Virus record (IMG/VR): IMGVR_UViG_2597489870_000004
Direction: 5' to 3' (one strand)
Source of the DNA: a virus
Lineage: Duplodnaviria > Heunggongvirae > Uroviricota > Caudoviricetes
DNA length: 45,587 nt
Positions 28,416 through 28,713 of this stretch are shown here, in pieces. A program made the translations under genes and the position numbers. The notes under the pieces were generated by a model. That model worked only from the letters and a program-made list of their open reading frames with translations. It was not told the DNA's origin and did not search any database. Position 1 is the first letter of the stretch; each line of letters opens with the position of its first letter.

Positions 28416-28598
28416 TCAGTTCTGCAGACACTGCCGAACACCGTCGACAATTTCACAGACCTGAGACGCGGTATCGAAAAGCTGGCGCGCCTTATCCAGG
28501 CTGACGCACCCCACCAATAAAAAAGGCACCAGTATCGCTACCAGTGCCCGTTTCACCGCCGTTCGCGGCATTCTGTGTGTCCAGTGTTTTCGCGCCAT
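28416..28598 (-). CDS. Small predicted lipoprotein (lipobox LLVGC)
   Basis: 60 aa; basic N-terminus, hydrophobic core, Cys after LLVG; ATG overlaps stop of upstream 37-codon ORF (TGATATG). Confidence 0.5.
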   Translation of the reverse strand: MARKHWTHRMPRTAVKRALVAILVPFLLVGCVSLDKARQLFDTASQVCEIVDGVRQCLQN

Positions 28599-28599
28599 A

Positions 28600-28713
28600 T
28601 CACCACCAACGCACAGCCCAAATCAGAACAGCGACCGCCACAAGGCGAATTGCAAAGGCCGCAGCCCTTGTCAAATCAAGGCTCGCGGGAGTTTCCATTT
28701 CAATACCTTTCAT
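28600..28713 (-). CDS. Small single-pass membrane protein (37 aa)
   Basis: MKGIEMETPASLDLTRAAAFAIRLVAVAVLIWAVRWW; GAGG 12 nt upstream; below the ORF-track length cutoff. Confidence 0.4.
   Translation of the reverse strand: MKGIEMETPASLDLTRAAAFAIRLVAVAVLIWAVRWW

What the first reader, a model, noticed from the sequence alone, without database searches (positions are those of the whole stretch)
28416..28713. Coupled 37-aa membrane peptide and 60-aa lipoprotein where Rz/Rz1 spanins would be expected
After the endolysin terminator there is no Rz-length ORF in any frame. Instead a 37-codon single-TM ORF ends in TGATATG, overlapping the start of a 60-codon lipoprotein with a lipobox and three Cys in the mature part. 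This could be a degenerate or unusual two-component spanin, an entericidin-like pair, or an exclusion lipoprotein.
Basis: partly seen in the sequence, partly recalled or inferred. Interest (0 to 1): 0.5.

Follow-up and report, generated by a model that had tools for sequence, protein, structure and literature searches.

The report
Orphan lysis lipoprotein replacing phage spanins
In this E. coli prophage the usual two-protein device that bursts the outer membrane (Rz/Rz1) has been swapped, exactly at its start codon, for a tiny conserved outer-membrane lipoprotein with no inner-membrane partner, which makes it a testable candidate for a new way phages finish lysis.

Summary
Both ORFs are real, conserved, minus-strand genes at the end of a phiP27-type lysis cassette: two holins, an M15 endolysin, a hairpin, the small membrane ORF, then the lipoprotein. 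Two details need correcting. The genes do not overlap (TGA-T-ATG). The small ORF most likely starts 13 codons earlier, at GTG 28752, giving 50 aa.

They are not a dedicated pair. In sampled E. coli and Yersinia prophages the same small ORF sits, with the identical junction, directly upstream of a complete Rz/Rz1. In about 30 other cassettes the lipoprotein follows the endolysin within 3-14 nt, with no small ORF.

Among 88 non-identical loci, none has an intact lipoprotein together with Rz. The one Rz-bearing phage that also carries the lipoprotein gene (GER2) has it as a pseudogene. It is the only lipobox ORF in the whole prophage.

A 2018 spanin census listed the phiP27 copy as an o-spanin. 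Its proposed i-spanin partner is an antisense shadow ORF that is absent here.

Best reading: a late-expressed, 30-residue helical outer-membrane lipopeptide that takes over the outer-membrane step of lysis without an i-spanin. The mechanism is unproven. The small ORF is a separate accessory membrane protein of unknown function.

The parts
28416..28598 (-). 60-aa prolipoprotein. The signal peptide (28509-28598) has an unusually long basic n-region, MARKHWTHRMPRTAVKR. The lipobox is LVGC with Cys31 at 28506-28508. The mature part is 30 aa, CVSLDKARQLFDTASQVCEIVDGVRQCLQN, and the stop is 28416-28418.
   Evidence: ORF and sequence. It is the only lipobox ORF in the window. Family phrog_7528 has unknown function. 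The lipobox and C48/C57 are invariant or nearly invariant in 31 relatives. pN/pS is 0.29. AF2 gives one helix over residues 12-59 with pLDDT 71.
28600..28752 (-). Small tail-anchored membrane protein. The C-terminal hydrophobic segment is AAAFAIRLVAVAVLIWAV, followed by RWW and the stop.
   Evidence: phrog_4493, unknown function; pN/pS 0.10, with the upstream 13 codons at 0.11. It is found upstream of Rz/Rz1 in L003 and L008-L017.
28596..28608 (-). Junction TGG TGG TGA T ATG. It holds the stop of the small ORF, a 1-nt spacer and the start of the lipoprotein. GGTGGTGA may act as the Shine-Dalgarno sequence for the downstream gene. It is also the exact breakpoint of homology between Rz-type and lipoprotein-type cassettes.
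   Evidence: The window matches the Rz-bearing locus L010 from 29976 down to 28596. It matches E. coli W, phiP27 and L018 from about 28591 onward.
28799..28843 (.). G+C-rich hairpin (CCCCGG...CCGGGG) flanked by A/T runs on both sides. It is terminator-like on both strands and lies between the endolysin and the small ORF.
   Evidence: fold z-score -2.75. It is present with the small ORF in STEC1575. The E. coli W-type cassettes lack the small ORF, and their 14-nt endolysin-lipoprotein spacer contains no hairpin.
28846..29229 (-). Endolysin, Peptidase_M15_4 family (L-alanyl-D-glutamate peptidase type).
   Evidence: PF13539, E 7.8e-13; phrog_465 endolysin, E 1e-75.
29226..29501 (-). Holin, Phage_holin_3_7 family (91 aa).
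   Evidence: PF05449, E 1e-21; phrog_217.
29491..29934 (-). Holin, Phage_holin_8 family (130 aa from MSEPLSG; the ORF is open to 29934).
   Evidence: PF16931, E 5e-23. A homologous 130-aa holin was shown experimentally to drive Stx2e release (PMC12571312).

Best explanation
The region is the distal end of a phiP27-type late lysis operon. The two ORFs are separate modules.

The 60-aa ORF is a prolipoprotein. It is presumably exported by Sec, lipidated at Cys31 and sent to the outer membrane by Lol, because the +2 residue is Val and never Asp in the family. This would leave a 30-residue, moderately amphipathic helical lipopeptide with two conserved Cys in the inner leaflet of the outer membrane.

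It occupies, to the nucleotide, the position that Rz/Rz1 holds in sister cassettes, and it is the only spanin-like gene in the prophage. I therefore propose that it performs or enables the third step of lysis, outer-membrane failure after the holin and endolysin have acted, without an inner-membrane partner. The most likely way is by weakening or perturbing the outer membrane, functionally like colicin lysis/BRP lipoproteins, rather than by bridging and fusing the two membranes.

The 50-aa upstream ORF is an independent, strongly conserved, tail-anchored inner-membrane protein (N-in). It precedes whichever outer-membrane-step gene is present, and its last codons may supply the ribosome-binding site for that gene. 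Its own role is unknown; lysis timing or regulation is a guess.

Shown here: the ORFs, the lipobox, conservation, purifying selection, the position, the exclusivity with Rz/Rz1 and the exact swap junction. Inferred: export, outer-membrane sorting, disulfide formation, late-only expression, and any activity on the outer membrane.
For: 1. Exact allelic swap. The window is homologous to the Rz-bearing locus L010 through both holins, the endolysin, the hairpin and the small ORF, down to the ATG at 28596. It is homologous to lipoprotein-bearing loci from about 28591 onward.

2. Exclusivity among 88 non-identical loci. Intact lipoprotein without Rz: 75. Rz without lipoprotein: 7. Rz with a lipoprotein pseudogene: 1 (GER2, three in-frame stops). 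Neither: 3, plus 2 with a defective lipoprotein and no Rz. Intact lipoprotein with Rz: 0.

3. The position after the endolysin is kept across different cassettes. These have different holins (PF16931 plus PF05449, PF05106, and others) and different endolysins (M15_4, GH108). They come from E. coli, Salmonella, Citrobacter, Lelliottia and metagenomes. The gene often starts 3-14 nt after, or overlapping, the endolysin stop.

4. It is the only lipobox ORF in the whole prophage, and there is no Rz or Rz1.

5. Purifying selection is comparable to that on the holin. The lipobox and two Cys are conserved down to about 40% identity.

6. No minus-strand promoter-like site lies upstream.

7. Induced or isolated phages (phiP27, phiSTEC1575-Stx2k, pPE4) carry the lipoprotein and no Rz. 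Among 279 Stx phages, the only two without Rz belong to the cluster with a metallopeptidase endolysin (PMC8136144).

8. Kongari et al. 2018 independently picked this gene as the phiP27 o-spanin.
Against: There is no experimental evidence for any lysis role. A 30-residue lipopeptide cannot span the periplasm, and its mechanism is unknown. It is not cationic (net charge about -1) and only moderately amphipathic (muH 0.35).

The region between the lysis and packaging genes is a classic site for morons. In this window a terminator-like hairpin separates the pair from the endolysin.

Some related prophages have neither Rz nor the lipoprotein (L095, L106, L110), so the function is dispensable for prophage carriage.

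The loci were fetched using the lipoprotein, the small ORF or the holin as bait, and many are closely related. The exclusivity table is therefore not an independent sample. Rz was detected only by tblastn with three enterobacterial Rz sequences, so divergent spanins could have been missed.
Confidence: 0.5

Rival explanations
1. The small membrane ORF and the lipoprotein together form a minimal two-component spanin. The small ORF would be the inner-membrane subunit and the lipoprotein the outer-membrane subunit.
For: The two genes are adjacent, with a 1-nt spacer and possible translational coupling. The arrangement is very common: the P0184 variant is indexed in 7098 collection blocks, and all 8 places shown have the lipoprotein next. 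[quoted passage not shown]
Against: The same small ORF, with the same junction, precedes a complete Rz/Rz1 in E. coli, Yersinia and phage GER2. About 30 non-identical cassettes have the lipoprotein directly after the endolysin and no small ORF. The basic N-terminus predicts N-in topology, which leaves only RWW in the periplasm. That is 30 + 3 periplasmic residues, against 62 for the shortest spanin pair in the 2018 census.
Confidence: 0.07
2. The lipoprotein is a true o-spanin whose inner-membrane partner has not been recognised. The partner could be encoded elsewhere in the phage or be a host protein.
For: The census lists it as an o-spanin. There is a weak match to phrog_1275 'Rz-like spanin' (E 0.048, mostly over the signal peptide). 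Conserved periplasmic Cys recall the disulfide-linked Rz1.
Against: The published phiP27 i-spanin (20348-20542) lies antisense to a conserved 90-aa ORF. Its frame is broken in the 46%-identical homologue in L083, where the 91-aa antisense gene is intact. The whole insert is absent from this window, E. coli W and STEC1575. No type II membrane protein lies near the cassette. Minimal cassettes of holin, endolysin and lipoprotein recur in distant phages. The mature part is only 30 aa.
Confidence: 0.12
3. The lipoprotein is a moron unrelated to lysis. It could be a lysogenic-conversion or exclusion lipoprotein, like Bor, Cor or Llp, that happens to sit between the lysis and packaging genes.
For: The site is a known moron hotspot. 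Other cargo is inserted there in relatives, including KilA-N, Ais-like phosphatase, a 93-aa soluble ORF and Ail/Lom. A terminator-like hairpin lies upstream in this window. In GER2 the copy lies downstream of Rz/Rz1, in the bor-like position.
Against: No minus-strand promoter-like site was found. In many cassettes the gene starts 3-14 nt after, or overlapping, the endolysin stop, so it must be co-transcribed late. It stays with the endolysin while the packaging modules change. It has decayed in the only phage that also has Rz/Rz1. There is no PADLOC match.
Confidence: 0.15
4. The pair is a decaying remnant left after the spanin genes were lost. These prophages would lyse, if at all, without an outer-membrane step.
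For: Spanins are dispensable under shaking and low-Mg laboratory conditions (established knowledge). Some relatives lack both genes.
Against: Both ORFs are under purifying selection. They are intact in 75 of 88 non-identical loci and present in 341 of 5426 complete E. coli genomes. The mature lipoprotein shows no significant similarity to Rz, so it is not a deletion derivative of Rz.
Confidence: 0.05

Closest known systems
Rz/Rz1 two-component spanin of phage lambda, and the 'separated' spanin assigned to phiP27 by Kongari et al. 2018 (PMC6139136)
   Same: It is the last position of the lysis cassette and shares an identical upstream junction with real Rz genes. It is an outer-membrane-type lipoprotein of Rz1-like size (30 vs 40 mature residues) with conserved periplasmic Cys. 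The phiP27 orthologue is already listed as an o-spanin.
   Different: There is no sequence relation to Rz1 (not proline-rich; no PF06085 hit). There is no credible i-spanin: the published phiP27 one is an antisense artefact and is absent here. The periplasmic length is far too short to bridge the envelope.
Colicin lysis proteins / bacteriocin release proteins (Pfam Lysis_col, PF02402)
   Same: These are small lipoproteins, about 28-33 aa when mature (from established knowledge). They compromise the outer membrane without an inner-membrane partner and are co-expressed with a product that must leave the cell. This is the closest functional analogy for how a lone lipopeptide could act.
   Different: There is no sequence similarity (no Pfam hit at E<=1). 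The context is a phage late operon, not a colicin operon. Dependence on the outer-membrane phospholipase PldA is untested.
Disruptin gp28 of coliphage phiKT (bioRxiv 10.1101/515445)
   Same: It is a single small phage protein that replaces spanins for outer-membrane disruption in a spanin-less coliphage.
   Different: gp28 is a cationic antimicrobial-peptide-like protein without a lipid anchor. The protein here is lipidated, near neutral (net -1) and only moderately amphipathic.
Entericidin A/B (PF08085)
   Same: Small size, helical mature peptide, lipobox.
   Different: Entericidins are two tandem lipoproteins, a toxin and an antidote. Here only one ORF has a lipobox, there is no Pfam match, and the context is a phage lysis cassette.
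Lcc6 of Shewanella phage LambdaSo (bioRxiv 10.1101/2024.01.23.576932). This comparison applies to the small ORF only.
   Same: It is a single-TM phage protein of about 50-65 aa with no known domain, linked to lysis. It is a precedent for extra small membrane proteins being required for lysis.
   Different: Lcc6 has an N-terminal TMD and a cytoplasmic tail and is encoded far from the lysis genes. The ORF here is C-terminally anchored and lies inside the cassette. No sequence comparison was possible.

Membership tests
Two-component spanin (i-spanin + o-spanin) | o-spanin: an outer-membrane lipoprotein with a lipobox and no Lol-avoidance Asp at +2 | tested here: met
   LVGC with Cys31 and +2 Val. 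The +2 residue is V/A/T/G/S/E in relatives and never D. It is the only lipobox ORF in the window.
Two-component spanin (i-spanin + o-spanin) | A linked type II (N-in, C-out) inner-membrane protein with a sizeable periplasmic domain | tested here: not met
   The small ORF has its membrane segment at the C-terminus, with 3 residues beyond it. It is absent from many lipoprotein cassettes and precedes full Rz/Rz1 elsewhere. No other candidate lies in the cassette. The phiP27 'i-spanin' is an antisense ORF.
Two-component spanin (i-spanin + o-spanin) | Sequence membership in Rz (PF03245) or Rz1 (PF06085) | tested here: not met
   No Pfam hits at E<=1. No tblastn hits with three Rz and one Rz1. The mature peptide scored against Rz is no better than shuffles.
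Two-component spanin (i-spanin + o-spanin) | Complements a spanin-null lysis defect; complex formation via the C-termini | not testable with these tools
   This needs lambda Rz-am Rz1-am complementation and pull-downs.
Unimolecular spanin (T1 gp11 type) | N-terminal lipobox plus a C-terminal transmembrane domain in one chain | tested here: not met
   The mature part ends ...VDGVRQCLQN with no hydrophobic C-terminal segment.
Entericidin pair (PF08085) | Two tandem small lipoproteins; profile match | tested here: not met
   Only one ORF has a lipobox. There is no Pfam match.
Colicin lysis protein / BRP (PF02402) | Profile match; colicin operon context | tested here: not met
   There is no Pfam match, and the context is a phage late operon. 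The size class and lipid anchor are similar, so 'works like' remains open.
Colicin lysis protein / BRP (PF02402) | PldA-dependent quasi-lysis, blocked by Mg2+ | not testable with these tools
   This requires expression in pldA+ and pldA- hosts.
Disruptin (phiKT gp28) | Cationic amphipathic peptide with no lipid anchor | tested here: not met
   Net charge is -1, and -2 to +3 across the family. muH is 0.35 and a lipobox is present.
Moron / exclusion lipoprotein (Bor, Cor, Llp type) | Own promoter and expression in the lysogen; position independent of the lysis genes | tested here: inconclusive
   There is no minus-strand promoter-like site. The gene is tightly abutted to the endolysin in many relatives. 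There is no PADLOC hit. Expression data are lacking.
Type I toxin-antitoxin (small ORF only) | Small hydrophobic toxin plus an overlapping antisense RNA | tested here: inconclusive
   The peptide fits. A plus-strand promoter-like site (28716-28745, 10/12 match) and the bidirectional hairpin could give an antisense RNA of about 90 nt. However, one such site is no more than the shuffles give, and there is no Rfam match.

The most novel reading that the evidence does not exclude
The 30-residue outer-membrane lipopeptide is a third kind of phage outer-membrane lysis factor. It would be neither a spanin nor a disruptin, and would on its own substitute for Rz/Rz1 in many E. coli, Salmonella and Citrobacter prophages, including Stx2e phages. 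It might act through membrane perturbation or activation of the outer-membrane phospholipase, as colicin release lipoproteins do. Its long, conserved, basic signal peptide may contribute to that activity.
Probability: 0.35. Interest if true: 0.8.

Novelty: new variant of a known kind. Interest (0 to 1): 0.6.

Why it matters
How spanin-less phages breach the outer membrane is an open question in phage lysis. Only one alternative, the disruptin of phiKT, has been characterised.

This study identifies a conserved, widespread candidate in the most tractable host. It sits in a slot that is demonstrably interchangeable with Rz/Rz1, so a single complementation test in a lambda spanin-null lysogen would decide the matter.

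It also corrects the literature. The 'shortest known two-component spanin', that of phiP27, is probably not a two-component spanin.

The cassette belongs to Stx2e phages and to a prophage of ETEC strain H10407. A recent study shows that its holin drives Stx2e release but states that the outer-membrane step is unexplained (PMC12571312).

A self-sufficient 30-residue outer-membrane-active lipopeptide would also be of interest for engineered lysis and protein-release systems.

Tried and rejected
1. The lipoprotein as an internally deleted Rz. The C-terminal VRQCLQN resembles the Rz ends IRMQCLD and INKVCLGN. Smith-Waterman scores of five family members against three Rz were no better than shuffles, with one p=0.014 among 15 tests. 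Rejected.

2. Known family membership. Pfam, NCBIfam, PHROGs, PADLOC and PDB sequence searches gave only unknown-function PHROGs.

3. A profile search of 1.8 billion representative proteins found only 24 clusters, all small unnamed lipoproteins. There is no bridge to a known family.

4. An AF2 monomer model gave one long helix with moderate confidence and was not informative beyond helicity. No fold search was run on it.

5. An Rfam scan of the region gave nothing above the gathering threshold.

6. Literature. No paper held in the library tests these genes. The original phiP27 paper (PMC127862) is not held.

7. The 93-aa ORF found between the endolysin and the small ORF in some relatives was checked as a possible i-spanin. 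It is soluble and absent here.

Full report
**What is there.**
The finding lies on the minus strand, at the end of a lysis cassette. The cassette reads as follows:
- Phage_holin_8 holin, 29491-29934.
- Phage_holin_3_7 holin, 29226-29501.
- Peptidase_M15_4 endolysin, 28846-29229.
- A G+C-rich hairpin with T-runs on both strands, about 28799-28843.
- A small hydrophobic ORF ending at TGA 28600-28602.
- One spacer base.
- A 60-codon ORF, 28598-28416.

The window holds a complete lambdoid prophage. Tail, head, a lambda-like Nu1/A terminase, lysis, regulation and integrase genes are all present. The stretch tested (28400-28860) is 100% identical to a prophage of ETEC H10407. The lysis region is 84-92% identical to Stx2e phage phiP27 and its relatives.

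**Checking the observation.**
Both ORFs exist as described, with three corrections.
- They do not overlap. The reading is TGG TGG TGA T ATG.
- The small ORF most likely starts at GTG 28752, giving 50 aa. The 13 codons upstream of ATG 28713 show the same purifying selection (pN/pS 0.11, against 0.10 for the whole ORF and 1.7 and 2.4 in the other frames). The basic N-terminus is kept in 45%-identical homologues. phrog_4493 aligns from that point.
- Met1 is the conserved start of the lipoprotein, not Met10 as annotated by PGAP and the 2018 census.

The lipoprotein has a PROSITE-style lipobox (LVGC, Cys31). Its mature part is 30 residues with two further, nearly invariant Cys. Its pN/pS is 0.29, and 0.20 for the mature part, against 0.12 for the endolysin and 0.26 for the holin.

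It is the only lipobox ORF in any frame of the 45.6-kb window. tblastn with three Rz and one Rz1 finds nothing in the window.

**The two ORFs are separable modules.**
The small ORF occurs with the same RWW-TGA-N-ATG junction directly upstream of a complete Rz (PF03245) with embedded Rz1 (PF06085). This is seen in:
- E. coli prophages that have the same two holins and M15 endolysin (L008-L013).
- Yersinia prophages with a GH108 endolysin (L014-L017).
- Stx phage GER2, which has a lambda-type S/R pair.

Conversely, the lipoprotein follows the endolysin directly in several settings with no small ORF:
- 14 nt downstream, behind a good Shine-Dalgarno sequence, in E. coli W and about 29 non-identical viral contigs.
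- 16 nt downstream in Citrobacter braakii.
- Overlapping the endolysin stop in Lelliottia.
- 3-6 nt downstream in metagenomic loci, two of which use a lambda-S-type holin.

In another common arrangement a 45%-identical homologue of the small ORF and a further 44-46-aa membrane ORF precede the lipoprotein. phiP27 and pPE4 have the lipoprotein but other inserts in place of the small ORF.

**The swap.**
Pairwise blastn places the homology breakpoints at the start codon. The window matches the Rz-bearing locus L010 from 29976 down to 28596. It matches E. coli W, phiP27 and L018 from about 28591 onward.

Among 88 non-identical loci with at least 1.2 kb downstream of the endolysin:

| Lipoprotein | Rz | Loci |
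|---|---|---|
| intact | absent | 75 |
| absent | present | 7 |
| pseudogene | present | 1 |
| absent | absent | 3 |
| defective | absent | 2 |
| intact | present | 0 |

The pseudogene case is GER2, with three in-frame stops and the GTGGTGATATG junction still recognisable.

The sample is bait-biased and phylogenetically clumped, so the table is descriptive, not a test. Even so, the gene keeps its place after the endolysin while the holin type, the endolysin type and the packaging module all change. That is the pattern expected of a lysis-module gene.

An independent survey found Rz in 277 of 279 Stx phages. The two exceptions are in the cluster with a metallopeptidase endolysin (PMC8136144).

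**Relation to the literature.**
Kongari et al. 2018 list phiP27 as a 'separated' two-component spanin with the shortest periplasmic length in their census, 62 residues. Their o-spanin is at 20706-20861, which is this lipoprotein read from Met10. Their i-spanin is at 20348-20542.

That i-spanin is a TTG-initiated ORF lying antisense to a 90-aa ORF. In the 46%-identical homologue in L083, the 91-aa gene is intact while the 'i-spanin' frame is broken to 36 aa. The whole insert is missing from this window, E. coli W and STEC1575.

The published pairing is therefore very probably an artefact, and the lipoprotein is an orphan.

**What the proteins look like.**
The lipoprotein family is small: 24 clusters at 50% identity among 1.8 billion representatives, all unnamed. 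The family has these features:
- A long, basic, conserved n-region (M-x-RKHWTHR-x-PR).
- The lipobox.
- A mature peptide with the Cys pattern C-x16-C-x8/9-C, predicted helical (AF2 pLDDT 71).
- Moderate amphipathicity (muH 0.35 overall, 0.5-0.6 in the best 18-residue window) and a net charge of -2 to +3.

It matches no Pfam, NCBIfam, PADLOC or PDB entry, including Rz1, Lysis_col and Entericidin. It shows no significant similarity to Rz.

The small ORF family ends in the near-invariant AAFAIR(L/I)VA(V/I)AVLIWA(V/I)RWW. Its N-terminal 28 residues have a net charge of +3, which predicts N-in topology. It has no annotated relatives.

**Most likely mechanism, with shown and inferred steps separated.**

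Shown:
- The gene is the last member of a late lysis cassette.
- It is interchangeable in position with Rz/Rz1.
- It is under purifying selection.
- It has the sequence hallmarks of a lipoprotein routed to the outer membrane.

Inferred:
- It is transcribed only from the antiterminated late promoter. No minus-strand promoter-like site was found, and in many relatives there is no room for one.
- Its translation is coupled to the gene upstream, whose Trp-Trp-stop codons form GGUGGUGA.
- It is exported, lipidated, oxidised and inserted in the inner leaflet of the outer membrane.
- Once the holins and the endolysin have removed the wall, the outer membrane fails because this lipopeptide has weakened or perturbed it.

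A 30-residue peptide cannot bridge the envelope. The closest working analogy is therefore the colicin lysis/release lipoproteins, not the spanins. It is not a sequence member of either family.

I put about 0.8 on 'lysis-cassette gene expressed late' and about 0.5 on 'supplies the outer-membrane step without an i-spanin'.

The small ORF is best described as an independent accessory inner-membrane protein of the cassette. Its function is unknown. Lcc6 of LambdaSo is a precedent for such proteins mattering in lysis.

**Rivals.**
- The small ORF plus the lipoprotein form a minimal spanin: 0.07.
- The lipoprotein is an o-spanin with an unrecognised partner: 0.12.
- The lipoprotein is a moron or exclusion lipoprotein: 0.15.
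- The pair is a decaying remnant: 0.05.

The evidence for and against each is given in the rival entries.

**Verdict.**

The gene is already in the literature as a computational o-spanin call. The new points are that it has no partner, that it replaces Rz/Rz1 at an exact junction, and that it is widespread: 341 of 5426 complete E. coli genomes have a match, and one variant of the upstream small ORF is indexed in 7098 collection blocks.

This makes it a strong, cheaply testable candidate for a new route of outer-membrane disruption. Interest is 0.6.

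Noticed in passing
window 28716-28845, + strand: A sigma-70-like site (TGGACA-18-TATACT, 10/12 match) lies antisense inside the small ORF. It points toward the bidirectional hairpin at 28810-28843 and could produce an antisense RNA of about 90 nt covering the small ORF's start region. That would be a type I toxin-antitoxin-like layout. The hexamers are identical in GER2 and L010, and TATACT also in L014. Synonymous divergence is lower in the first 13 codons (pS 0.25 vs 0.51). One such site is within the chance expectation, and there is no Rfam hit.
   Followed up: partly
L001 (phiP27) 4246-4518, i.e. record 20332-20604: The i-spanin assigned to phiP27 in the 2018 spanin census (record 20348-20542) lies antisense to a conserved 90-aa ORF, which appears to be the real gene. 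In L083 the i-spanin frame is broken while the 91-aa antisense ORF is intact. The RefSeq phiP27 record also annotates a wrong-frame ORF (L32) over the lipoprotein gene.
   Followed up: yes
L003 (phage GER2) 4809-4976: This is a pseudogene copy of the lipoprotein (three in-frame stops). It lies downstream of an intact Rz/Rz1 and an Ais-like phosphatase gene, and it still carries the GTGGTGATATG junction of the small-ORF module. This is evidence of past recombination at that junction.
   Followed up: partly
L018-L033, about 3161-3495 in each: In cassettes with a GH108 endolysin, the lipoprotein is preceded by two small membrane ORFs. One is a 60-aa homologue of the small ORF (MRKYKPILLRL...). 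The other is a 44-46-aa hydrophobic ORF (MSMSDSIIKLARILCVVVG...) with pN/pS 0.15. Hybrid forms exist (P0144, L060). The region upstream of the lipoprotein is a mosaic of small membrane genes.
   Followed up: partly
window 27849-28292, - strand: This is a 147-aa soluble ORF (phrog_1935, unknown function) downstream of the lipoprotein. The profile match begins at residue 18, so the real start is probably internal. It travels with the lipoprotein in phiP27 and many prophages, but not in E. coli W or the distant cassettes.
   Followed up: no
window 29972-30617, - strand: Three tRNA genes (Met-CAT, Arg-TCG, Arg-TCT), a TerB-like fragment and a 50-aa DUF3927 membrane ORF lie upstream of the holins. 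In phiP27 the stx2e genes sit between the tRNA genes and the holins. ARAGORN's tRNA identities differ from the RefSeq annotation of the H10407 prophage, which lists tRNA-Ile and tRNA-Arg.
   Followed up: no
L115/L116 (metagenome) 1536-8169: A distant lipoprotein homologue sits in a cluster of Q antiterminator, lambda-S-type holin, M15 endolysin and lipoprotein. An alpha/beta hydrolase and tail/baseplate genes follow directly, and no packaging or head genes are seen in the fetched stretch. This may be a tailocin-like element.
   Followed up: no
L095, L106, L110: These are close relatives in which the M15 endolysin is followed directly by an oppositely oriented Ais-like phosphatase gene. They have neither Rz/Rz1 nor the lipoprotein.
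   Followed up: partly
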